Positions 20,603 to 36,735 of a DNA stretch of 64,000 bases are shown piece by piece. How positions within the stretch are numbered: position 1 is the stretch's first letter; every line of letters starts with the position of its first letter. This DNA is from Naegleria gruberi (Eukaryota). The DNA lies in NCBI GenBank assembly GCA_000004985.1, contig GG738869.1; one strand, given 5' to 3'. Made by a program: the position numbers and the translations under genes. The notes under the pieces were generated by a model. That model was not told where the DNA came from. It worked only from the letters and a program-made list of their open reading frames with translations, and searched no databases.

Positions 20603-21757
20603 ATGTTCCACCATTCGGATGCAATGATTGATGGTGAGGATGTTAATATAACTCCTATTGAGAAGGTATTATTTTCTTGTCATGGCGAATTTATGAAAAC
20701 TTCTTCCTCTGCAAGGCAATTGGATTCTTCATCATCAAATATAAATAATTTTCTAATTTATTATGAAATGGATTTAAATAATATTAAACAAAAATTGGAA
20801 GGAAGCGAATGTGATGAATTTAAAGTGGAAAAATTGCTTTTTAATTTGACAAATCGAGTGAGGATGATGGTGAAGGATTGGGACAAGCCTTCGGAACATT
20901 ACAGAGTACCTTTTTATCATTATATTGTTGGGAATCCATATCAGTTGCCTAATTTAATGTTTTTTAGAAAGTTGGTGATGGAATCGAATGAGTTTATTGA
21001 GGATTTAATTCTGGAGAATCTGTCATTGTCAGTTTTTAGGCAAATGTTTGAAGTTGCTTGTAAATTTACCAAGGAATATTACAATTTTACGAGTAGGAAG
21101 AGTTTTACCTTGTTTATGAGTCCTACTCCAATTGTAAATTTTATTAGAAATTTGTTGAAATCATTTGGATATGATTCAATATTGAATGGTTATTGTAAAG
21201 CTGGAAATTCAAGTCAATTACTCGCTTTGAAATGTGAAAGTGTAAATTTATGTGGAATAATCTCAAATGATCTATCAGAACAAACTGAAGAAGAGTGGAA
21301 GAATTGCATTCTTATTCCACAAATAATGCAGAGAAGAAACAAGCATGGTCACTTTGAAGATTCACTTTCGTTTATCATTCATGGACAATCAATTTCATTC
21401 TTCTTTACCAATTATTCACTCTCGAGTTCTATTTATCATTTCAGGACAAATTTCATCAAGACAATGAACATGAACAATTTGGATGATATAATTGATCTAA
21501 TTGGTTTATTATGGTCCTATCTGATGACTGTTCTGATGCGAAAGAAGGTTCCAATTCTATTGGGATGTGATGTAAATACATTACTCCCACTTCGATACAC
21601 TATTCTACTCTATCACATGGACAGTAAACTAAAAAAGAAGGAAGAAGAAGAGCCATCCATACTCAATAGGAATGATCAAAGAATTAAAAAGAAATCCCAG
21701 AAATCTGACATTGCAGACAAGGTCAGGAAGAGTTTAAAAAAGGCAAATATGTTCTAG
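20603..21757 (+). CDS. Hypothetical protein
   Basis: The long ORF has a TTG-listed start, and the first ATG is at 20603. No domain is recognised. Confidence 0.4.
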   Translation: MFHHSDAMIDGEDVNITPIEKVLFSCHGEFMKTSSSARQLDSSSSNINNFLIYYEMDLNNIKQKLEGSECDEFKVEKLLFNLTNRVRMMVKDWDKPSEHYRVPFYHYIVGNPYQLPNLMFFRKLVMESNEFIEDLILENLSLSVFRQMFEVACKFTKEYYNFTSRKSFTLFMSPTPIVNFIRNLLKSFGYDSILNGYCKAGNSSQLLALKCESVNLCGIISNDLSEQTEEEWKNCILIPQIMQRRNKHGHFEDSLSFIIHGQSISFFFTNYSLSSSIYHFRTNFIKTMNMNNLDDIIDLIGLLWSYLMTVLMRKKVPILLGCDVNTLLPLRYTILLYHMDSKLKKKEEEEPSILNRNDQRIKKKSQKSDIADKVRKSLKKANMF

Positions 21758-21769
21758 TAGAATACACCA

Positions 21770-22168
21770 TCAAGAGTTGGGATTTATCTTGGAGTTTGCC
21801 AATTGACTAACCATCGATTGGAATAATACATGTTCAGGTAAACTCTGAAAATCTGTAAATCTAGAAATCAACATTCCAAACAAGACATTCACTTGGTCTG
21901 AAGAAGTTGCACAAAACTCATTCCAATCATTCAACAGACGTTTTTCAGCTTCAGGAGAAAGAACATGTGCTTCACTAATCTTTCGCTTTTTGTTATCTTG
22001 ATAACTAGTAGTAGTAATTGTATCGTTATCATTATTGACATACTCTCGTTTTCCTACCGAATTAATTCTGTCATCATCATAACAATCTAACGAAGAAGAA
22101 GAACACATATCAGTGCGCTGCATAATATTTTCTTCAGAGAATTGTTGTTGGTTTGGTTGTTGAATCAT
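21770..22168 (-). CDS. Hypothetical protein
   Basis: This is a 132-aa ATG ORF. Confidence 0.3.
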   Translation of the reverse strand: MIQQPNQQQFSEENIMQRTDMCSSSSLDCYDDDRINSVGKREYVNNDNDTITTTSYQDNKKRKISEAHVLSPEAEKRLLNDWNEFCATSSDQVNVLFGMLISRFTDFQSLPEHVLFQSMVSQLANSKINPNS

Positions 22169-22659
22169 GTTGTTGGTTGTTAGTTGTGATTTTTTTTTCG
22201 TTCTGAATGCCTGAAGTTTAGGAGATGGACCATTTGGCTGTCACAAATACGGTTTTAGAAAAGCTTATTTCTAAATTGGTATTATAGAAAATACAATTAT
22301 ATCTCCTCGGTTTATCTAAATATTGACCTGTGTGTCGAATTGAGGAGGTTTATGAACCTACGCAGCTGAGCAAGTTATTTATTTTTGCAATTAGGAAACA
22401 CAAACAAACATTCAAGAAACTCTTTGAGTTGCATTGCAATTATTGTAGTAGTTATTACACTATTAACTGAATAAAATTGGTTTCCATCTGGTACGATTAT
22501 TAATATAATAGATCAAAATCATCATTAAGCAATATGACATCGGAACATGATTATAATAATCTCACTTATTAAATCACCACAATGAGATAATTAATTTTAA
22601 TTTCATTAGATAGAAGACGAGGATGAAAAGATTCTACTTTGAAGATATATATCCAGATC

Positions 22660-22835
22660 TATATGTTACTGACTCTTCTGGTAAGACCTTTTACATTGAT
22701 GTCGATGCTAACACCTCTGATGCCTAACTTTTCTCTCAAGAATGCTGGAAAGGTCAATATTAACCTTAACATGTTGAAGGCTGGTGATGAAGTTGATATC
22801 TTTACAGTTATTCCATTACATTTATTGTGGATACG
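22660..22835 (+). pseudogene. Partial, internally deleted duplicate of the downstream PPC-domain gene (source 24897..25135)
   Basis: 22741..22792 is near-identical to 25071..25122 (aatgctggaaaggtcaatattaaccttaacatgttgaaggctggtgatgaag). 22683..22740 is a diverged match to 24900..24950. About 100 nt of the source segment are missing between short direct repeats. Confidence 0.7.
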
Positions 22836-23289
22836 CACAAACATACATTTAAGAAACTTTTCGAGTTATATTGATAATCATTTAATATTCTAAAAAATTA
22901 AGAAATGGAAAGAAGAGGATGAACAGAAGATAGTTGGCCGTTACTTTGAAGAAAATTTAATCCTTTGATTTGCACATGGCTCATGTATCAACTAGGATTT
23001 AAAAGACCAAGAAATCAATTTGATTGCATAGTTACGCAGCCGCGACTCTAAGGTTTTGTTAAGAAACTATTTTTAAGAGTATTGAATTTTCCAGACTTCC
23101 TTAGTTTTCCTCAAGTTAAATACTTGGCCGAGACACATGCCGTGTGATTGATACAATTGTCTTAAATAGACAAAACCTACATCATTTCTATATTCTATCC
23201 TACCGTAATCTACCGCCCCTCAATGTAGATTCAATGGAATGAAAATTGTGTCAAAAGACTCACCAGTACCAAAAAATTAGCCTTAAAAA

Positions 23290-26200
23290 ATGAAAGAACT
23301 GCTATTAGCTACTATTGCCATATGCTTATTTTGCTGCTCTCTTGTTTTTGCTCAGAATACCGTCATTAAGTATGATGTTTCTGGTAAGAACGTTTCAAAG
23401 ACCCTGATAAGGGGAGAAATTCAATATTTTCTCGTTGATGTTTCATCGTGGGGTTGGAAAGAAGGAGATTTTGTTACCCTTAGTTTGAATTCACTCTCGG
23501 GTGATTGTGATATGTGGATTAGCAGTGTTGACTATCCAAAAACTGCTTGTGCCAATTGCCTTGGTCCAAATGGCTTTGGTGATGTTCGAATTATATACTA
23601 CAATTCCACTGAGAATGCACAGGGTGTTTTCTATGTTGGAATCATTGCTCAAGAAAGGAGTGCTGAATTTACTTTTGTTGCTTGGAAGTCTAATGGTAAG
23701 TTTTGATTGTTCAATTCCGAATGACATTAATTAGAAATTATCAATATTAACAAGAATGAAATTATCTTTGCTCAATCCCCAACTGGAAAGAAGAATACCT
23801 TTTTATTCAACATTCCAAGCGAAGCCAATTTGATTACAATCAATGTTGATGGTATCTATGGCGATCCAGATCTATATGTTACTGGTTCTAATGGTGATTC
23901 ATGGGCTTCTGAGAATTACGGATTTGAGACTTTGAAGATTAAGGCTGTCCCAGGACTGACTCAATTGAAAATTACTATTGTTGCCGTCTCTGATACTGTC
24001 TATAGTGTAGTTATCAAAGTCAATGACCAATCTGTGCGTTTACCAGAAGGTATCTTCTCACCAATACTGTCAATGCGAATGAAATGGATACCTTCATGTT
24101 CAGAAGTCTTGAAGCTGTTCAAAATATATTTGTTGAAATTAAACACCCCAGTAATGAAGAGGGAGAAACCAAGTTATACGTTCGTAAAGGAGCTATACCA
24201 ACTAGCAGTGAATTTGATTATGTCATTTCAGGTGAGGGTACATACACTGTAGCGGATGCCACTGTTGGTGATTACTATTTTGGTGTTGTTGGTTTGATGA
24301 ATAATACCAACTATAAGATTTGGGCATTTGGTGAAAACCAAAATCAAGTTGTTCTTTTCACCAGTCAACCAGTGCAAAAGGCATTCACTGCTACCACAAA
24401 GTCTTACACTTTCAAGTATGCCAATAACGATCAAGCCAAGACCATTGTTGCTACTGCGAAGCTTGTTTCTGGATCCTCAATTAATGTTTATGGAGCTCAA
24501 TTCTCTAGACCTAGTTCCACAAAGTACCATTCTAAGGCTGTTGCAATCACTGGTGCCGATGGTGTCTTAAAGTTTGTTGCTCCATCTCCACGTCCAAACA
24601 TTTACTTTACTGTTGCTGCTGATTCTGGTGAATTCTCAATTGAAGTCACCACTTCTCAACCAATCATGGCCCTCAGTGATGGTGAAGAAGTTTATTTGAA
24701 TTGGGTTCCAAAGGGATCATACAGATATTTCTCCTTTGTTGCTGATAAGTATCCAGAAAAGGCCATCTCCATCACTGCCCACCCATTTAGTGGCGACGTT
24801 GGTGTCCAAGTTTCAACCATTCTTCAATATCCATCTGTTAATAGTAACCAATGGTTTGCTAAACACACTGTTTACATACCAGCTCAAGATTCTAAGGCTT
24901 CTGGTAAGACCTTTTACATTGGTGTCCATGCTTTCACTTCTGATGCATACTTTTCCATATGCGCTTCTCAAGTCAGAGCCATAATGCCTCTCTCTGAAGG
25001 AACATCAACCTCAAGTTCTGTTATTGAAAGAGAGTATGCTTACTTTTCTCTCAATATCAAGAATGCTGGAAAGGTCAATATTAACCTTAACATGTTGAAG
25101 GCTGGTGATGAAGCTGATATCTTCTACAGTTATTCCGTCAAGACACCAAACAGATATGATTATGAAGGGAGATCTATTAATAATGGTAAGAATGTTTTGA
25201 CCATTGAAGATGCCAACCCAGGAGAAATTTACATTTCTGTTTTTGGTATTGTTTCAACTACTGATAGTACCACTAAAGCTATTCCATTTACTCTCTCAAT
25301 TGCCACTGATTATTTGAACTTGTTCCCAAATGGAGATACTGCTCTCGTCAATTCTGCAAAGGGTACTATTACTCATTTCAGAACTAACATTACCAGCGCA
25401 TTGAGGATTATCACTGCTTCTGCAACCCTCATTTCTGGTAAAACTGCAATGTACATCTCCACAAATGGAGAAAAGGCTAGTTTTACCAATTTTGTTTGGT
25501 CTGACCAAAATACGAATGGTAATAGCATTGTTATCAAGCAAACTGACCTTGCCTTTAGACGTGGAGTTTGTTTTATTGCAATTCTTGCTATTGAAAACTC
25601 TGTCTATCGCATGTCATTGGCTAGTAATATTGGTGCCACAGTTTTGGAAAACATTCCAACACTTGGTAGAACTGCACCTGACGGAAATATGGAGTCTTTG
25701 ATTTATAGTTTCTCATTCAATGACTCTTCTAAGGATGTCTATCTTCACATTAAGGAATTGGAAGGAAAAGTTGATGTTTTTGTTAATCAAAACAATTATA
25801 CATCAGAAAGAAATTACACTTGGAAGTCTCTTTCTAATGGTGAAATTGCTAGAGGGATCACTCTCAAGAAGGAAAGTCTTGTTGTTGAAAAGGCTGTCTA
25901 TGTTTCTGTAATCGGTAAGGATCAAGGAAAGAGCTCTCTGTTCTCTATTGAATTCAGATATATGGCACCTCCAGTCAGTAATATTACATTCAAAGTTCAA
26001 ATAATTTCTCCAAATAATCCAAATCTTCAAAAGATTAATCCTAATGAAGATTTAATTTTAACAAGTGTTATTGAACCATTACCAAATGAAATGTTCTCCT
26101 ACAAATGGGTAATTCCAATGAATGACATTGAAATAACAAAGAGTTATATTGTCATTCCTAAACATTTACTAACAAGTGGAATTTCATTTTATATAACTTT

Positions 26201-27724
26201 AGAAATTACAACAACAAACCAAGAAAAAAGTACAACCTTTATTAACGTTAAAGTGAATGAATCTCCAAAATTGGGAGAGTTTGCAGTTTCTCCAAAAACT
26301 GGTTATGTTTTAGAAACTCAATTTAACTTGACAGCAAATAACTGGTATGAAAATGAACCTGTGACTTATCGATTGTGTATCGATATGTTGGAGATTTAAC
26401 ATGGAAAACTCTTTCAGAACAATCATCTCAAAGATCTTTGACAACTTCATTACCTTTTGGAAATATTGAATTAGCAGTGTTTATTTATGATTCATTCAAT
26501 TCATTTACCCAATCACAAACTATTTCAATTCAAGTGCTTCAAAAATCAGAATTTTCAAATGAAGTATTAACTACATTAGAAAGCGAAACATCACTCTCGC
26601 CACCAATTCTCGCAACTCTGTCAACAATAATATCAGATCAAAATATACAGGTCAAGGAAAGGGTGATTCGAATAATTTCAAACTATTTTACAAAACAATT
26701 AGATCTATTGAGAAGTAATAATATAACTACTAATCAATTAAGCTCCATTGCTTCAACTATTTCATCTGTTAGCACATCAATTTCCCATTTAGATACAAAC
26801 ACTAAAACTGTTATTTTGGATTATTTTTCAGGTACATTGGAAAAAGTAGCAAGTAATAGTATTCAACTTTCAGATAATGATTTCCAAGTTTGTTTATCAT
26901 CAATTTCAACGATGGAAGAGCAAACAAACAGCATAGTTCAGAAATATACTACCAAGGTGATCAAAATTTACAAACTACTTTCAGATTTTAAATTAAGATC
27001 CTTATTAGAAGATGGTTCTCCGTTTAAGATTTCTGGTAAAGTTTACAAATCATATTCAAAATATGTAAAGAATTACTCGGCACTTCAAGATGTTCTCTAT
27101 GATCAAACTGAAATTACTATGAATCCACTTCAAATTCCATCATGTATTGTTGGTGTGAAAACATACACTAATGAATTATTAAGTAGTGATTTCAAATTCT
27201 CTCAAGTTATAGAATTTACTCTTCAAAATGCTAACACTTTGCAAAATATTGATCTTGGAGTGAACTCTAATTTATTATCACAAATAACATTCCCTTATAA
27301 TTCAAGTGCAGTTTCTAGAAAGTTAACATTACAGACCACTCATTGCAAATATCAATTATCGACAGGAGATTTTGTGGATGATCATTGTACTTTGCATAGC
27401 AATGATGATGGCACTTTATCTATGAGAATTTCTAGAACTGGAATTTTTGTTATTGGATATCAAGAAACCAAAATTGAACCTACTCAATCGGTTCATCCAA
27501 CTCAATCAGAATCTTCAAATATTCCATTGATTATAGGATTATCTATTTTCTTTCCTGTTACATTTATTGTGGTTGGCATTATTTTAATATTGGTATTTTA
27601 CTTATTAAGGAGAAATAGAAATGTGAAATCTAAAATCAAAAAGACGTTCGCCAATATTAGGGATGGTCAATATCTTGAAAAGTTTGAAGATTCAAAAGTC
27701 GAAATGCAAGAAAGTACTTGTTGA
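23290..27724 (+). CDS. Multi-domain secreted or membrane-anchored protein with tandem PPC-like (pre-peptidase C-terminal) beta-sandwich domains and a C-terminal TM anchor. The gene model has two unresolved frame discontinuities.
   Basis: A signal peptide MKELLLATIAICLFCCSLVFAQ begins at 23290. Repeated modules carry the GxxDLYV motif (GDPDLYV, GETKLYV, GKVDVFV, GDEADIF). A C-terminal TM segment IPLIIGLSIFFPVTFIVVGIILILVFYLL ends at 27724. There is an intron at 23696..23734 (39 nt, GTAAGT..TTAG). A -1 frame change at about 24050-24105 is best explained by a 35-nt GT..AG intron at 24069..24103. A second -1 change at about 26377-26417 has as its only GT-AG solution one that creates a TAA. Confidence 0.6.
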
Positions 27725-27898
27725 TTTCATTGTGCAATATGTAATGAATATTCAAGATATTAAAAGGAAATTCCTCAATGTTATAGATCAATTAAACTAT
27801 TGCTTTGAAACTTAAACTTCTATTTTTGTAAAGAGTATTGTAAAATATTTAAACATTTAGTGGTTTCCAAGTTCCAATCAAAACTCTCATTTAAAAAA

Positions 27899-30800
27899 AT
27901 GCCAGAAAATCAAAGCGAACAAGGTGAGAACAATTCGCCACTAATTACATGGCTTAAAGTTGTGTTTCCATCTGGTATGAATAATAATAGATCATCAACT
28001 TTGGAACATTATGCAAATTCTTCACAGTACGCTTCGGAACATGATGAGGATCATCAGCAGCAAGAAATTATTAAATCACCAACAATTAATTCGAGTTTGA
28101 GTTTGATTTGGTTTAGTGGTTTGCTATTGGAGAATGATCATCATTCAATGCTGGTAGTTGAAAGCTTTACGGAAATGGCCAAGTTAATTAAATCATCATC
28201 AGAAGATTCATCAACAATATGTGAGGAAATGTATTTTGGATTATCGGAGGAGGGAAAATACTTTATTCATAATAACAATAATAAGAACAATAAGAAAATC
28301 GATACGGAATCCAATAATACCAACACTAGCCTATTTGTAAATCCTCCTCCACTCATGATGAAAAGTTCTGTCAATTCTTCCCTGCTTGGAAAACCAACCT
28401 CCTCATTGGAGACATTTATTTATTTATTTTCATTATGTTCACTATGCAATGCTTGTTCGGAGGAAATTTTCAACAACTTTAATGAAATAGTGCAGGTAGT
28501 AGAATATAGTTTACAGGATGTAAATTGTCAGAATGACATTTATTGGCAGGAGATTTATAATAATATTTCTGCCGATTCACAATCACTGATCATATTGGGA
28601 AAGTTTATTTGTGCAATTTTTCCTCATATTCAGATTTTAAACAAATCCAATTCGACTATACTGTTCGGTCACATTTGTAGATGTTGGACTAAACAAGTCG
28701 TGAATAATTCGAGTGAAGAGTTGTGGAAATTATTGGCCAGGTTTTTATCATATCCCGAACTCTCTAGGTATTACTTTTTTACCAATTCAGAAATTGGTCA
28801 TACTACTAGTGTGCTATTGGCAAATTACACGATTGACATTTTAGATAAGGACCATTATTGTGATGATAGTAATTTTACACTTTCAGAGAAATTCGAGCTC
28901 TTCTTGAAAGTATTTAAAAACAAATTCCTCACATCAGATTTCAAGGAATCTTCAGAGATTTACGAATATTGTAAATTATTTATTGATACAGATACATTCA
29001 AGGAGGAACATTTCGAGCTGTATCTAAGATTCAAAGCAGAAATGGAATATATTGTCATATTATCGCCTCCTTTTGTATCATATTATAGAGCTATAGAATA
29101 CTTGTTGAATTTAGCAAATCAAGTCGAGGAGAGTAAGGAAACACTCTCAGAGAATGTATATATCTTCCTCAAATCTCAAATTATTTTACACAAACTAAAG
29201 AAGGCATCAACCTTTGAAATATCTGCCGAGTATTACTCCCAAAAGGATTATTTGATTACAACCTTCAAGAAGGAATTGGAAGATTTGGTTGATATCAAGA
29301 ACGAATACTTCACTAAGGGGTATTTGAACCCATTCATCATACATATACTTTCTCCTGGCAAATTAATGCGCAATTGGCTGCTGGTTAACAATAAGAATAC
29401 TCTCTCAAAAATTCAACATTACAGCTCTCTTGCTGGCTGGTACAAGGAGAGAGGAAATTGTGTCAAACACAGAGAGTACCTCCAAAAGGCCTACTCTCTC
29501 TTCCAATATATTAATATGAGAGATTGGATGAATAATGGAATATTTGAAGTGGCCGAGAGTTTGGTATCTGCTTATGCCTCTGAAAGTCTTCCTCCTTTTT
29601 TCAGCAAAAAGCTATTGATTGAATTGGAGGCATTGTGGAGTGGATTGGACTCAACTAGAGAGCTATACTTTCCTGGAGCCTATAAAATTCTCATCAATTT
29701 GAAAGCAAGTCTATGTCCAGAAAAAGAGAGTAGAGAAATTCTTGACTCTGCCATATCTTTATTCAAATCTGCACTTTGCCTGAGAAAGGACAATTATGCA
29801 ATTGAAGAGAATCCAAATTATGAACAAATTCTTAAATATGGAGGTGAAGATAACAAGAAGAAGGATACCTCCGCATATCAAGTTTACATTTCTCTCATCA
29901 AGGATCATGCCAATACCTATTCCAAATCAGCTCCTAAAGTTTCACTTAAAATTTACAGGAACCTTTTGATAGAGAATACTGTCAAGCATGACCACTGCTC
30001 CATTAGATTGTTTATTCTCTCACTGTTCTCATCATTGAACATGCAAAATGACATGATCCATTTATGTGACCAACTCTTTGAGTATTATGGAACATATCCT
30101 GTCGTAAAAATCAGATGCTATCAATACTTGGCTGATTATTACAAGAGAAAGATCAAGTTTTCTACTCTTCTTTCAGAAGAATTACAATTAATTGAAAAAT
30201 CTCTACTCAACCTGACTGGTGCTGTGGAAGTTTTGAAAGAAAACGACTTGGATACTTACTCTTCCCTATCAGACTTTTTATTGTGTGCACAGACAGCATC
30301 TTCCCTATATTCAAGTTTTAGTGATCGAATCAAGAAGGATGTCAAGTGGGAATCTTTCGAAAAGTCCCTTTCAACAATATTTGAAGACCTTATTGAATTC
30401 TTGAAAAAGTTTGACTTTTCTAATTGTATTTCCAAAAGTAATATCGATTTAGTCCAAAGTATGTTTTCAATACTTTCAGGTGCTATGGAATTCTTGAGCA
30501 CTTCCCAATTGAAGACCATTCTTCTCAAGGCACTTCTACTCTCAGAGAATATCAAACCAATTGTTAACATTTACAATAATTCCACGATTATGTATGGATT
30601 TTATGATATTCTGATTCTCTCCAACAAGTTCTTTTCTCAGGTTGAAGAACCAGTTGTTAAGGAAATTAACTATGAAAAAAGAGACTTATTGGGGTCAATT
30701 TTTTCTGTGGATGAGGAAAATACCAATTTTTGGAACCACATGATAGAATATCCAGAGGATCAGTTTCCAACATTTTTGGAAATTGAGTATGGCTTTTTAA

Positions 30801-32491
30801 ATTTCCTATTGGAGGGGTTTCAACATCACGGAGTATACAAATCTCTCATCTATAAGCAAATATTTGATATCCACAGAAGAAATAAGAATTGCACAAAAGA
30901 ATTATTCCTCAAGCATCTCGAATCATGGAAAGAGGTTGCAATCGACTCAGACACTAGAAGACACTACCCAACTCACATTCTTGATTGTGAACTCTATGAG
31001 AATTTTACCAAATTCAAAACAAAGGGAGATTTGACACTCACCAGAATGAATATCATTACCGATGTTTCCTCTATTGATGAGACAACCAAACAAAGAGTAG
31101 TAAGGGATTTGTCAAATGATATATTCTTCCATGAAAAGTTTTTACAAACCGTCTCAATGATTCAATCTTATGAAATGATACTTGCCATCAACTTGAGACA
31201 AGTGGATTTATTCTCTAAAATTCCTACCAGCTTTTGCAAACTAAGAGCACTGAGATCTATCCTATTTCTTGAATCTGTGACTGGAATTAATGGACTCAGT
31301 GAACACTTTTTCGAAAGAGTGCAACAAATTCAAGTCTCAGACGATCTCATTGTCAACATTGGATGTGGTAATGATGATAGAATTTACATTTATGCTAAAA
31401 TTGAAGGTCTCGATTTGAATTATGATGTCATTACTGAAGATAGAGTCAAGGTAATGGAAAAATTATTGGAATCATCATTCTTTGGATTTATGGATATATA
31501 CAGTGAAATTGATTACTTGTCGTGTGGTTTGAGTGAGGATGGCTCCATCTATTTGCACACATACTATGAACTGAAGACGAGCTCCTTCTCCAAACTTCTC
31601 TACACCCTTCAAACCTTCATCAAGAATGCAGAAAATTGGAAGAGTGAGGTATTTGAATTGATATCCAAGAAAACCAAACATACTAGTGCAACCAACATTA
31701 GAGAACGTATCTTTAATACTCGATACCTAGCCACACACAACACAAAGAAAAAGTATGGTTTGAGCAAGGATCAAGGTACTCTTGTTGAATCAATCATTAC
31801 ACTGATTGAAAAGAAAGAGGAGGAATCTAAAACACCAACCCACGAAAAGCAAGACGAAAATGAAATGCTCGAAGTATTCACAGATAGTACCCTGGAAGTG
31901 TTGGAATCATACCTATCCAACTCAACACAAGATCTCTACGATGGAACTCTTCAAAAGTATAAGGCTAAGGAAATGATTGAAAATAGTTTGAATGCTCTGT
32001 GTTTCATCTCTGATCTGTATCACTTAGGTCAGTTGAAATCAAAGGAAAGAGCAGACAATTTATTGCAAAATTTAGGAGATGCCCTTGGATTGGCAGGAAA
32101 TCTCCAATTTACTGAGAGTGATAGAATTTGCACCATTGCAGCCAATGGTTTGAATATTTATCTTCAACATCGAAGAAAGGAGGGCAGATTACTCGATCAC
32201 ATTTTCATTTTTGCCATTTGTAGTGTCAAGATTAATTGTGTTCACAAGAAGGATCAAGTTTACACATACTTTTTAAAGAGTTCACTATTAGGAGGAAATT
32301 CTATGGGAGGTGGATTCGGTGTCATTAAGAATGAGAATGATCCAGCCAAGATTTCAATTTATTACTACACTAGATTGAGTGTTGAGAATGCATCAGATAC
32401 AGCACTGATGGAGGTTCTTCCAGGATTTGTCACTTCTTATAGTGAATTGTTGGATGATTTGGAGAAGATTCTATCGGATAGAAGTTGTTAA
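27899..32491 (+). CDS. Large hypothetical protein (about 1530 aa, helical-repeat-like)
   Basis: This is one continuous ORF. Its listed start is a GTG, and the first ATG is at 27899. No recognisable catalytic motif is present. Confidence 0.55.
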   Translation: MPENQSEQGENNSPLITWLKVVFPSGMNNNRSSTLEHYANSSQYASEHDEDHQQQEIIKSPTINSSLSLIWFSGLLLENDHHSMLVVESFTEMAKLIKSSSEDSSTICEEMYFGLSEEGKYFIHNNNNKNNKKIDTESNNTNTSLFVNPPPLMMKSSVNSSLLGKPTSSLETFIYLFSLCSLCNACSEEIFNNFNEIVQVVEYSLQDVNCQNDIYWQEIYNNISADSQSLIILGKFICAIFPHIQILNKSNSTILFGHICRCWTKQVVNNSSEELWKLLARFLSYPELSRYYFFTNSEIGHTTSVLLANYTIDILDKDHYCDDSNFTLSEKFELFLKVFKNKFLTSDFKESSEIYEYCKLFIDTDTFKEEHFELYLRFKAEMEYIVILSPPFVSYYRAIEYLLNLANQVEESKETLSENVYIFLKSQIILHKLKKASTFEISAEYYSQKDYLITTFKKELEDLVDIKNEYFTKGYLNPFIIHILSPGKLMRNWLLVNNKNTLSKIQHYSSLAGWYKERGNCVKHREYLQKAYSLFQYINMRDWMNNGIFEVAESLVSAYASESLPPFFSKKLLIELEALWSGLDSTRELYFPGAYKILINLKASLCPEKESREILDSAISLFKSALCLRKDNYAIEENPNYEQILKYGGEDNKKKDTSAYQVYISLIKDHANTYSKSAPKVSLKIYRNLLIENTVKHDHCSIRLFILSLFSSLNMQNDMIHLCDQLFEYYGTYPVVKIRCYQYLADYYKRKIKFSTLLSEELQLIEKSLLNLTGAVEVLKENDLDTYSSLSDFLLCAQTASSLYSSFSDRIKKDVKWESFEKSLSTIFEDLIEFLKKFDFSNCISKSNIDLVQSMFSILSGAMEFLSTSQLKTILLKALLLSENIKPIVNIYNNSTIMYGFYDILILSNKFFSQVEEPVVKEINYEKRDLLGSIFSVDEENTNFWNHMIEYPEDQFPTFLEIEYGFLNFLLEGFQHHGVYKSLIYKQIFDIHRRNKNCTKELFLKHLESWKEVAIDSDTRRHYPTHILDCELYENFTKFKTKGDLTLTRMNIITDVSSIDETTKQRVVRDLSNDIFFHEKFLQTVSMIQSYEMILAINLRQVDLFSKIPTSFCKLRALRSILFLESVTGINGLSEHFFERVQQIQVSDDLIVNIGCGNDDRIYIYAKIEGLDLNYDVITEDRVKVMEKLLESSFFGFMDIYSEIDYLSCGLSEDGSIYLHTYYELKTSSFSKLLYTLQTFIKNAENWKSEVFELISKKTKHTSATNIRERIFNTRYLATHNTKKKYGLSKDQGTLVESIITLIEKKEEESKTPTHEKQDENEMLEVFTDSTLEVLESYLSNSTQDLYDGTLQKYKAKEMIENSLNALCFISDLYHLGQLKSKERADNLLQNLGDALGLAGNLQFTESDRICTIAANGLNIYLQHRRKEGRLLDHIFIFAICSVKINCVHKKDQVYTYFLKSSLLGGNSMGGGFGVIKNENDPAKISIYYYTRLSVENASDTALMEVLPGFVTSYSELLDDLEKILSDRSC

Positions 32492-35526: not shown

Positions 35527-35756
35527 ATAAACTGTTTCAATTTACTTTTAACTTACATTGTAATCAATTTACAATTTAATAGTAATCACAAAGTTCTCAC
35601 TTAACAAAAACAATACACCGTACTATTCCACCTTACCAAATAATGACTTGTATTACAAGCACCATTATAATCATGTTACTCGTCAAGAACACGTTCTAGC
35701 CGAATCTAAGCGAATCAACTATGCATCGTTATTTTACTCATCACAAAAAAAACAAA

Positions 35757-36203
35757 ATGAAGACAACCTCTGTACTTATCATTGCAGTCTTGATGGCCAT
35801 TTTGATGGCTACCTATGTCACTGCCTCCCAAGATCCATTCGATGCTATGGCCGATGCTCTCGCTGATGCTTTCACCATGAAACGTCGTGGAAGAAGAGGT
35901 GGTAGACGTGGTGGACGTAGACAACAACAACAACCTGTTGAACAAGTTGCTCAACCAGTTGCTGCTGCTGAACCACAAGAAACTCAAGAAGAAGCTGACG
36001 TTTTTGCTCTTGTTGAAGCTTTGAGAAGAAGAGGAAAGAGAAGAGGAGGAAGAAAGGGAAGACGTGGTCAACAACCACAACAACCTGAACAACCTCAAGT
36101 TCAAGCTCCACCTGCTCCAGTTGAACAAGTTGCTCAACCAGAACCTGCTCAAGAACAACCACAAGAAGAATCAGATGCTCTTGCTACATGCGCTCATTCG
36201 TAA
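35757..36203 (+). CDS. Secreted repetitive precursor-like protein. It has a signal peptide followed by two repeats of an acidic amphipathic helix, a poly-(Arg-Gly) basic block and a Gln/Pro/Glu-rich spacer.
   Basis: MKTTSVLIIAVLMAILMATYVTAS is followed by DPFDAMADALADAFTM-KRRGRRGGRRGGRR-QQQQPVEQVAQPVAAAEPQETQEE and then ADVFALVEAL-RRRGKRRGGRKGRRG-QQPQQPEQPQVQAPPAPVEQVAQPEPAQEQPQEE. The DNA-level direct repeat gttgaacaagttgctcaaccag occurs at 35937 and 36119. The gene is markedly GC-richer than its flanks. Confidence 0.65.
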   Translation: MKTTSVLIIAVLMAILMATYVTASQDPFDAMADALADAFTMKRRGRRGGRRGGRRQQQQPVEQVAQPVAAAEPQETQEEADVFALVEALRRRGKRRGGRKGRRGQQPQQPEQPQVQAPPAPVEQVAQPEPAQEQPQEESDALATCAHS

Positions 36204-36311
36204 GTTTTAAAATTTGCATGATTCTTTACACATTATCCTCTTGCATGATATTTCTAAATTTTTAAATAATTGTCATGGAATGCTTTTTGGAAATTATTCG
36301 AAACTCTAAAG

Positions 36312-36735
36312 TTTCCCATTGTTCAAGCAATGTGGTCAATCATGGAGCTCTCAATTGATTAGTACTGATACCATCTGTAAATCTGGTTGTTTGATGACCT
36401 CCATGTGTATGGCTTTGAACGGTCGTGGAAAGACTAGCATGAACCCAGGTCAATTTGCATCTTGGTTAAAGTCAAACGGTGGTTTCAGTGGTAATCTCTT
36501 TGTCTGGGGAAGTGTTTCCAAGTTTGGTCTTACTTATGAAGGTAAAATTAAGGGAACTAGCTCAATTGCTTCACAACTCTGTGCTGGAAAGATTGTCATC
36601 CTCAATGTCCGTTATGGTGGACATTGGGTTTTGGCCACTGGTTTCGATGGTTCTTCATTCACTGTTAATGATCCAGGTTATTCCAAGTCTTCATATGCTG
36701 CCTCTGAAGTTACTCAAGCTGCTATTTATCATTAG
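36312..36735 (+). CDS. Peptidase_C39-like (C39_2-type) cysteine peptidase domain. It has no own ATG before the catalytic Cys and is probably a downstream exon of the 35757 gene.
   Basis: The motifs are QCGQSW...CKSGCLMTSMCMALNG (Cys motif), QLCAGKIVILNV, and GGHWVLATGFDGSSFTVNDPG (the His and Asp of the C39-like triad). The frame opens immediately after a TAA at 36306. The GTAAGT donor at 36200 (phase 2) and the AG at 36310-36311 (phase 2) join it in frame to the upstream gene. Confidence 0.6.

What the first reader, a model, noticed from the sequence alone, without database searches (positions are those of the whole stretch)
22660..27724. PPC-domain surface protein gene with two -1 frame discontinuities and a partial deleted duplicate 2 kb upstream
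Signal peptide, PPC-like modules and the TM anchor are clearly one protein. Yet the reading frame shifts by -1 twice, near 24050-24105 and near 26377-26417. The first shift is rescued by an unusually short 35-nt GT-AG intron at 24069..24103, which restores the 28-29-residue domain spacing. For the second, the only GT-AG pair in the right frame creates a TAA. Upstream at 22660..22835 is a fragment copy of 24897..25135 with an internal ~100-nt deletion and a 52-nt stretch of near-perfect identity. Together these suggest recent duplication or gene conversion plus decay, programmed frameshifting, or indel errors.
Basis: seen in the sequence. Interest (0 to 1): 0.5.

Follow-up and report, generated by a model that had tools for sequence, protein, structure and literature searches.

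The report
Frameshifted Naegleria surface-protein gene, mis-annotated
A Naegleria gruberi gene for a large cell-surface protein lacks one base at each of two places inside its coding sequence, so it is most likely a recently broken gene or a sequencing error that the public annotation hides with two invented introns; this is an ordinary finding.

Summary
The window is Naegleria gruberi reference sequence. The gene at 23290..27724 (+) encodes a signal peptide, eight PPC/UPF0669-like modules, a REJ domain, a GAIN-like stalk, one transmembrane helix and a short tail. Both -1 frame breaks are real. The 35-nt GT-AG "intron" at 24069..24103 is not an intron. It encodes the first strands of module 3, and adding one base instead raises that module from 11.7 to 23.5 bits and from partial to full length. 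The second break is one base missing at 26376-26377. With one base added, the REJ domain reads on (81 bits against 51), and the sequence aligns without gaps to four intact N. gruberi paralogues. The public gene model (1344 aa) hides the two breaks behind that 35-nt "intron" and a 326-nt one. Neither break has a slippery heptamer, a homopolymer run or a downstream RNA structure. The best reading is two single-base deletions, either a young pseudogene or null allele (about 0.6) or assembly errors (about 0.3). It is a collinear four-piece relic of the whole gene, and a relic of the downstream neighbour's 5' end lies beside it. Both look like leftovers of older tandem duplication.

The parts
23290..27724 (+). 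Whole disrupted gene. It encodes a signal peptide, 8 PPC/UPF0669-like modules, a REJ domain, a GAIN-like stalk, one TM helix and a short cytoplasmic tail. The conceptual product is 1465 aa after adding one base at each break.
23696..23734 (+). Intron, 39 nt, phase 1, GTAAGT..TTAG, 28% GC, with in-frame stops. It is also present in the public model.
23380..25946 (+). Eight tandem PPC/UPF0669-like beta-sandwich modules (aa 31-873 of the conceptual protein).
   Evidence: module HMM built from 62 modules of homologues P0002-P0005; i-Evalues 7e-5 to 4e-17; weak Pfam PPC/UPF0669 hits
24049..24062 (+). Frame break 1. One base is missing somewhere in GGTATCTTCTCACC, inside module 3 (24040..24320). The reading ..LPEGIFS|TNTVNANEMDTFMF.. 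matches the module HMM without a gap.
24069..24103 (+). It is coding sequence, not an intron.
26001..26620 (+). REJ domain (Pfam PF02010 profile positions 207-441). It runs straight across frame break 2.
   Evidence: (81.2 bits with a one-base fix; 50.6 bits for the public model)
26376..26377 (+). Frame break 2. The dinucleotide TG is what remains of a codon between TTG (26373-75) and TAT (26378-80), so exactly one base is missing.
26377..26702 (+). The 326-nt 'intron' of the public model (GTATCG..TTAG). It is an open frame encoding the second half of the REJ domain and the first part of the GAIN-like region, and is not an intron.
26540..27467 (+). GAIN-like region: a helical bundle followed by a beta sandwich, ending in the conserved C..C..TG(F/Y) pre-membrane motif.
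27521..27607 (+). Transmembrane helix (..IPLIIGLSIFFPVTFIVVGIILILVFYLL..), followed by a basic cytoplasmic tail.
22632..22830 (+). Decayed mosaic relic of the gene, in four collinear pieces. A: 22651-22682 matches 23864-23895. B: 22675-22733 matches 24898-24955. C: 22724-22814 matches 25039-25136. D: 22816-22830 equals 27558-27572. Adjacent pieces A/B and B/C overlap by 8-10 nt in the relic. The relic has an internal stop and frameshifts.
22458..22607 (+). Decayed relic of the 5' coding part of the downstream neighbour gene (aligns with 27939-28108).
   Evidence: local alignment score 96; the maximum of 200 shuffles was 74; collinear BLAST pieces
22399..22436 (+). First copy of a 38-nt direct repeat (84% identical to the copy at 22836-22873).
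22836..22873 (+). Second copy of the 38-nt direct repeat, starting 6 nt after the end of the gene relic.

Best explanation
The locus is a Naegleria gruberi gene for a single-pass surface protein. The protein has a signal peptide, eight PPC/UPF0669-like modules, a REJ domain, a GAIN-like stalk, one TM helix and a short tail. As assembled, the coding sequence lacks one base inside module 3 (24049-24062) and one base inside the REJ domain (26376-26377). Neither break is an intron. Translation from the start codon would stop at 24250-24252, after two complete modules. The most likely reading is a young pseudogene or null allele: the lesions are real, and they are too recent for any further stop codon to have accumulated.

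The public 1344-aa gene model hides both lesions. It splices out 35 nt and 326 nt of coding sequence.

The intergenic DNA upstream holds heavily deleted relics of this gene and of the 5' end of its downstream neighbour. This points to older tandem duplication of the boundary between the two genes, followed by deletional decay.

Shown: the position and one-base nature of both breaks, the spurious status of the two annotation introns, the domain architecture, and the relics. Inferred: that the deletions exist in the organism's DNA and are not artefacts of the assembly, and that the gene is not expressed as a full-length protein.
For: Identity: the public N. gruberi protein P0001 is reproduced exactly from the window using exons 23290-23695, 23735-24068, 24104-26376 and 26703-27724.

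Break 1: a module HMM was built only from homologues, using 62 modules. With a one-base fix, module 3 matches HMM positions 2-97 at 23.5 bits with no gap across the break. With the 35-nt intron it matches only positions 38-97 at 11.7 bits.

Break 2: Pfam REJ scores 81.2 bits over profile positions 207-441 with a one-base fix, and 50.6 bits over 207-372 with the public model. Four intact N. gruberi paralogues (NAEGRDRAFT_66049, _74497, _76453, _45249) align without gaps, PLMYEFKYRVVGDSTWK against PVTYRLxYRYVGDLTWK.

Intron signals: supported introns in the window have GTAAGT donors and 18-28% GC. The 35-nt stretch has GTCAAT and 40% GC.

Recoding signals are absent. There is no in-phase X XXY YYZ heptamer, no homopolymer run of 4 or more, and no downstream RNA structure more stable than in shuffled sequence (z = 0.03 and +1.32).

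Recency: the corrected frame has no stop in 1465 codons, while the off-frame readings of the same DNA hold 57-106 stops.

No orthologue or close relative was found outside N. gruberi, which is compatible with a dispensable, lineage-specific gene. Decayed relics next door show that this locus has lost gene copies before.
Against: No read-level, transcript or second-strain data could be reached, so assembly errors are not excluded. Apart from the two missing bases the gene is undamaged, which is also what two sequencing errors in a functional gene would look like. My estimate that two independent consensus errors 2.3 kb apart are unlikely rests on general knowledge of Sanger assemblies, not on this assembly's quality values.
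Confidence: 0.6

Rival explanations
1. The two missing bases are consensus errors in the reference assembly. The real gene is intact and encodes the full 1465-aa surface protein.
For: Each break is exactly one missing base. The rest of the 4.4-kb reading frame is undamaged, with no stops in 1465 codons. Such a clean pattern is what sequencing errors in a functional gene would produce.
Against: Neither site is a homopolymer or simple repeat. The window contains no N or gap. The two sites are 2.3 kb apart, which is farther than one Sanger read, so two independent errors would be needed (my inference from general knowledge). No other gene in the window was tested against homologues for frame breaks; an ORF scan flagged one other overlapping ORF pair (35564-36200) that was not resolved.
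Confidence: 0.3
2. Both breaks are bridged by real spliceosomal introns, as in the public model: 24069..24103 (35 nt) and 26377..26702 (326 nt). The mature protein would be the 1344-aa P0001.
For: Both stretches have GT..AG ends and restore one open frame. Introns of 39-60 nt exist in this genome.
Against: Both 'introns' are open in a frame that continues the homology. Splicing them out removes module 3 HMM positions 2-37 (a loss of 11.8 bits) and REJ profile positions 373-441 (a loss of 30.6 bits). The deleted REJ segment aligns with four paralogues. The donors are GTCAAT and GTATCG, against GTAAGT in the supported introns. GC is 40% in the 35-nt stretch, against 18-28% in real introns.
Confidence: 0.05
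3. The breaks are bypassed during expression, by programmed -1 ribosomal frameshifting, transcriptional slippage or insertional RNA editing, so that a full-length protein is made.
For: Both shifts go in the same direction (-1), and the downstream frames remain intact.
Against: There is no in-phase slippery heptamer in either overlap zone and no homopolymer run on which a polymerase could slip. The downstream RNA folds no better than shuffled sequence. There is no Rfam match in 21500-28500. The four paralogues need no recoding at the equivalent position. To my knowledge no such nuclear mechanism has been described in Naegleria.
Confidence: 0.03

Closest known systems
Unitary or young pseudogenes whose frameshifts are hidden by automatic gene models with compensating 'introns'
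   Same: There are two disabling one-base deletions inside conserved domain-coding sequence. The public model P0001 inserts a 35-nt and a 326-nt intron that restore the frame at the cost of homologous sequence.
   Different: Pseudogene status is not proven here. No read or expression data were available, and there are no lesions other than the two frameshifts.
N. gruberi EGF-REJ-TM paralogue family (NAEGRDRAFT_66049, _74497, _76453, _45249)
   Same: The C-terminal 450 aa are 25-31% identical to these proteins. They share the REJ domain, a helical plus beta stalk, the conserved C..C..TG(F/Y) motif before a single TM helix, and a basic tail.
   Different: The paralogues carry EGF/teneurin-type repeats N-terminally (plus NHL repeats and a C-terminal kinase in _66049), not PPC modules. 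Their frames are uninterrupted.
Polycystin-1 / sea-urchin REJ (PKD-REJ) proteins
   Same: A REJ domain (Pfam PF02010, 81 bits) is followed by a GAIN-like domain next to the membrane.
   Different: There is only one TM helix, no PLAT domain and no channel-like region. The GPS cleavage motif HL|T is absent, although the Thr is conserved as 'TG'. This protein shares the ectodomain module, not the family architecture.
Eukaryotic multi-PPC/UPF0669-repeat surface proteins (P0002-P0005: unnamed Logan (P0002, P0004, P0005) and JGI (P0003) proteins, 1100-2515 aa)
   Same: The module of about 100 aa is the same, with the consensus ..G.Y.YF.F....L.I.V.P..GDPDLYVS....G.YYIGVYG... Identity is 22-29% over about half of the protein.
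   Different: Of these four, only P0004 was scanned against Pfam here: it ends in an ATG27/mannose-6-phosphate-receptor-like TM tail and shows no REJ hit. P0002 ends in a similar C-terminal sequence (by eye). In the window gene the modules are fused to REJ-GAIN-TM.

Membership tests
Spliceosomal intron (claim for 24069..24103) | GT..AG termini that restore the reading frame | tested here: met
Spliceosomal intron (claim for 24069..24103) | Splice signals and composition like other introns of the same genome (GTAAGT donor, AT-rich) | tested here: not met
   The donor is GTCAAT and GC is 40%. Four supported introns in the window have GTAAGT and 18-28% GC.
Spliceosomal intron (claims for 24069..24103 and 26377..26702) | The removed sequence is non-coding, so removing it does not delete conserved protein sequence | tested here: not met
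   Removal deletes module HMM positions 2-37 (23.5 falls to 11.7 bits) and REJ profile positions 373-441 (81.2 falls to 50.6 bits). The removed REJ segment aligns with four paralogues.
Spliceosomal intron (both claims) | Spliced junction observed in transcripts | not testable with these tools
   No RNA-seq or EST data were reachable.
Programmed -1 ribosomal frameshift site | In-phase slippery heptamer X XXY YYZ in the overlap zone | tested here: not met
   None in 24027-24252 or 26357-26399.
Programmed -1 ribosomal frameshift site | Stable stimulatory RNA structure just downstream | tested here: not met
   z = 0.03 and +1.32 against shuffled sequence.
Pseudogene | Disabling lesions inside sequence that is homologous to functional coding sequence | tested here: met
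   There are two one-base deletions relative to the homologues and paralogues.
Pseudogene | The lesions are present in the organism's DNA and are not sequencing artefacts | not testable with these tools
   No reads or second assembly were available. The metagenome scan and the exact-protein look-ups found nothing.
REJ domain (Pfam PF02010) | Score above Pfam's gathering threshold of 25 bits | tested here: met
   50.5 bits for the raw ORF and 81.2 bits for the frame-corrected sequence.
PPC / UPF0669 module (Pfam PF04151 / PF17065) | Score above Pfam's gathering threshold (25.9 / 27 bits) | tested here: inconclusive
   The best direct hits are 23.9 and 23.6 bits, just below threshold. Homologue P0004 passes (61.5 and 66.6 bits), and an HMM of the homologues' modules finds 8 modules here (i-Evalues 7e-5 to 4e-17).
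Polycystin-1 / PKD-REJ family | REJ + GAIN/GPS followed by multi-pass TM region with PLAT domain | tested here: not met
   There is a single TM helix and a roughly 40-aa tail, with no PLAT or other Pfam hit.
GAIN domain | Helical subdomain plus beta-sandwich subdomain, with the fold matching solved GAIN domains | tested here: inconclusive
GAIN domain | GPS motif with C..C pairs and an HL|T/S autoproteolysis site | tested here: not met
   One Cys is invariant across the five proteins (C337); a second nearby Cys is present in each sequence (by eye) but is not an invariant alignment column. The motif is ..SR|TGIFVIGY... Thr-Gly is invariant among the 5 paralogues, but there is no His-Leu.

The most novel reading that the evidence does not exclude
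The two missing bases are real in the DNA, yet the cell still makes the full-length protein. That would require an undescribed nuclear recoding mechanism in Naegleria, either insertional correction of the transcript or signal-independent -1 frameshifting, acting at two sites that have no slippery sequence or stimulatory structure.
Probability: 0.03. Interest if true: 0.75.

Novelty: new member of a known kind. Interest (0 to 1): 0.15.

Why it matters
The main value is for annotation. The public N. gruberi protein for this locus (1344 aa) is a product of two invented introns and lacks 11 residues of a PPC-like module and 109 residues spanning the end of its REJ domain and the start of the GAIN-like region. 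Anyone using it for domain or family analysis would be misled. The locus is also a small, well-resolved example of gene birth and death in an amoeba. It shows a lineage-specific fusion of PPC-repeat and REJ-GAIN-TM modules, its apparent recent inactivation, and older collapsed duplicates beside it. None of this is surprising to a specialist.

Tried and rejected
1. I first thought the second break was an 11-nt tandem duplication, TATCGATTGTG / TATCGATATGT. Removing it gives a lower REJ score (76.0 against 81.2 bits) and needs a 4-residue gap against all four paralogues. Rejected in favour of one missing base.

2. Gene conversion between the relic and the gene. A 57-nt identical run has p of about 0.056 given 15 differences in 189 columns. 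It is not required.

3. Search for independent copies of the locus. The metagenome scan with the junction-spanning protein found no relative. Exact-product look-ups of P0001, the 771-aa ORF and the 449-aa ORF found nothing on record. The first homology search returned no second near-identical protein. Real mutation and assembly error therefore could not be separated.

4. PDB sequence search with the C-terminal profile gave no meaningful hit.

5. Rfam search of 21500-28500 found nothing.

6. Homology of the sequence after relic piece D (22831-23289) to the parent's tail and downstream region is not above shuffled controls (score 50, against a 95th percentile of 49).

7. Literature searches for N. 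gruberi pseudogenes or frameshifts found nothing specific. One paper gives an average annotated intron length of 203 bp for N. gruberi (PMC8296547).
Full report
**Source and gene.** The window is Naegleria gruberi nuclear DNA. A search with the conceptual protein returned "predicted protein [Naegleria gruberi]" (P0001, 1344 aa, on a 747-kb contig). P0001 is reproduced exactly by joining window exons 23290-23695, 23735-24068, 24104-26376 and 26703-27724. The window therefore equals the reference assembly. The public model contains three introns, of 39, 35 and 326 nt.

**Checking the observation.** ORF listing and three-frame translation confirm a single plus-strand gene. It starts at ATG 23290 with a typical signal peptide and ends at 27724, after a hydrophobic helix and a basic tail. 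The frame stays the same across a 39-nt GTAAGT..TTAG intron (23696-23734) that contains in-frame stops. The frame then changes by -1 near 24050-24062 and again by -1 at 26376-26377. Both breaks are real in the sequence. The window has no N or gap.

**Break 1 is not an intron.**
- I built a module HMM only from the repeats of four distant homologues (P0002-P0005, 62 modules, 98 positions) and scored both reconstructions.
- With one base added between 24049 and 24062, module 3 reads ..LPEGIFSTNTVNANEMDTFMFRSLEAVQNIFVEIK.. . It matches HMM positions 2-97 at 23.5 bits, with no gap across the break.
- With the 35-nt intron, only positions 38-97 match, at 11.7 bits. The "intron" therefore encodes the first beta strands of the module, the G.Y.YF.F motif.
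- Its donor is GTCAAT and its GC content is 40%. The four supported introns in the window (39, 44, 60 and 112 nt) all begin GTAAGT and have 18-28% GC. The 44-nt intron joins two TPR-coding exons.
- A 35-nt length is not odd for this genome. The content of the stretch is what rules it out.

**Break 2 is one missing base.**
- Pfam REJ (PF02010) scores 81.2 bits over profile positions 207-441 when one base is added. It scores 76.0 bits if an apparent 11-nt duplication is removed, and 50.6 bits over positions 207-372 for the public model.
- An exhaustive HMMER search with the 449-aa downstream ORF found four proteins. All four are N. gruberi paralogues: NAEGRDRAFT_66049, _74497, _76453 and _45249. 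Each has an uninterrupted REJ domain.
- In a MAFFT alignment, PVTYRLxYRYVGDLTWKTLSE aligns without gaps to PLMYEFKYRVVGDSTWKVLSE and its counterparts. The 11-nt-removal version needs a 4-residue gap. The public model loses the homologous segment altogether.
- The dinucleotide TG at 26376-26377 is thus the remnant of a codon that has lost one base.
It does so by deleting 326 nt of REJ- and stalk-coding sequence.

**Recoding.** Neither overlap zone contains an in-phase X XXY YYZ heptamer, and neither break sits in a homopolymer run. The 81 nt starting at each break fold no better than shuffled controls (z = 0.03 and +1.32). Rfam finds nothing in 21500-28500. Programmed frameshifting or polymerase slippage has no support.

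**Real lesion or assembly error.**
- The corrected frame has no stop in 1465 codons, whereas the off-frame readings of the same DNA hold 57-106 stops. The gene was therefore under selection until very recently, or still is.
- I could not reach reads, transcripts or another strain.
- Two independent consensus errors 2.3 kb apart, at sites that are not error-prone, seem less likely to me than two real deletions. The gene is lineage-specific, with no orthologue found elsewhere, and the neighbourhood already contains dead copies.
- That judgement is inference. I put a real lesion (young pseudogene or null allele) at about 0.6 and assembly error at about 0.3.

**The protein.**
- After the signal peptide come eight modules of about 100 aa. 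They are related to Pfam PPC and UPF0669. Direct hits fall just below threshold, but homologue P0004 passes clearly.
- The REJ domain follows. After it comes a region that AlphaFold2, given a five-sequence alignment, models as a helical bundle plus a beta sandwich before the TM helix (pLDDT 69).
- The pre-membrane motif C..C....TG(F/Y)xV is conserved in all five paralogues (T and G invariant), but it lacks the His-Leu of cleavable GPS sites.
- The protein shares the REJ-GAIN ectodomain module of polycystin-1/REJ proteins. It does not share their multi-pass architecture.
- It is a fusion of a PPC-repeat ectodomain, like P0002-P0005, with the REJ-stalk-TM cassette of the N. gruberi EGF-REJ family.

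**The upstream fragment.** BLAST confirms the fragment and extends it.
- There are four collinear pieces: A 22651-22682 matches 23864-23895 (88%); B 22675-22733 matches 24898-24955 (88%); C 22724-22814 matches 25039-25136 (91%, E 1.5e-33); D 22816-22830 equals 27558-27572 (15/15, TM-coding).
- Pieces A and B, and pieces B and C, overlap by 8-10 nt in the relic. That pattern fits deletions between short repeats, of about 1.0 kb, 83 nt and 2.4 kb.
- The relic contains a stop codon and frame changes.
- The longest identical run is 57 nt. Given the other differences, this is only marginally unusual (p of about 0.056), so gene conversion need not be invoked.
- Immediately upstream, 22458-22607 aligns with 27939-28108, the 5' coding part of the downstream neighbour ORF 27860-32491. 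The alignment score is 96, against a maximum of 74 in 200 shuffles.
- A 38-nt direct repeat (22399-22436 and 22836-22873, 84% identical) brackets this stretch.
- Together these look like remains of one or two older tandem duplications that spanned the junction of the two genes and were then almost wholly deleted.

**Verdict.** The intron rescue is wrong. The finding is an ordinary frameshift-disrupted, or mis-sequenced, gene whose lesions are masked by the public annotation. It has annotation value and some interest as an example of gene turnover, but it is not mechanistically novel.

Noticed in passing
window 22458-22607 (compare 27939-28108): A decayed relic of the 5' coding region of the downstream neighbour gene (ORF 27860-32491) lies just upstream of the relic of the PPC-REJ gene. 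The order, downstream-gene relic then gene relic then intact gene, suggests repeated tandem duplication of the junction between the two genes.
   Followed up: partly
window 22399-22436 and 22836-22873: A 38-nt direct repeat (84% identical) brackets the relic-bearing stretch. The second copy starts 6 nt after relic piece D. Its origin is unclear, and I found no convincing match to the parent gene's tail.
   Followed up: partly
window 35564-36200 (+): Two open frames (35564-35863 and 35700-36200) overlap by 164 nt in different frames, with no GTAAGT-type donor. They lie upstream of a GTAAGT intron (from 36200) and an exon with a Peptidase_C39_2 match (36310-36732). This could be another frameshift or an intron with a weak donor.
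   Followed up: no
P0006 (NAEGRDRAFT_66049), paralogue elsewhere in the N. gruberi genome: This paralogue combines EGF/teneurin-type repeats, NHL repeats, a REJ domain, the same GAIN-like stalk, one TM helix and a cytoplasmic protein kinase domain (Pfam Pkinase, 147 bits). It is a receptor-kinase architecture with a REJ ectodomain.
   Followed up: partly
window 27380-27470; alignment A1: The pre-membrane motif C..C....x-T-G-(F/Y) has invariant Thr-Gly in all five N. gruberi paralogues but lacks the His-Leu of canonical GPS autoproteolysis sites. Whether it is cleaved is unknown.
   Followed up: no
window 27860-32491 (+): The 1543-aa ORF immediately downstream has no significant Pfam domain; the only hit is a weak CesT match at 26 bits. 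Its function is unknown.
   Followed up: no
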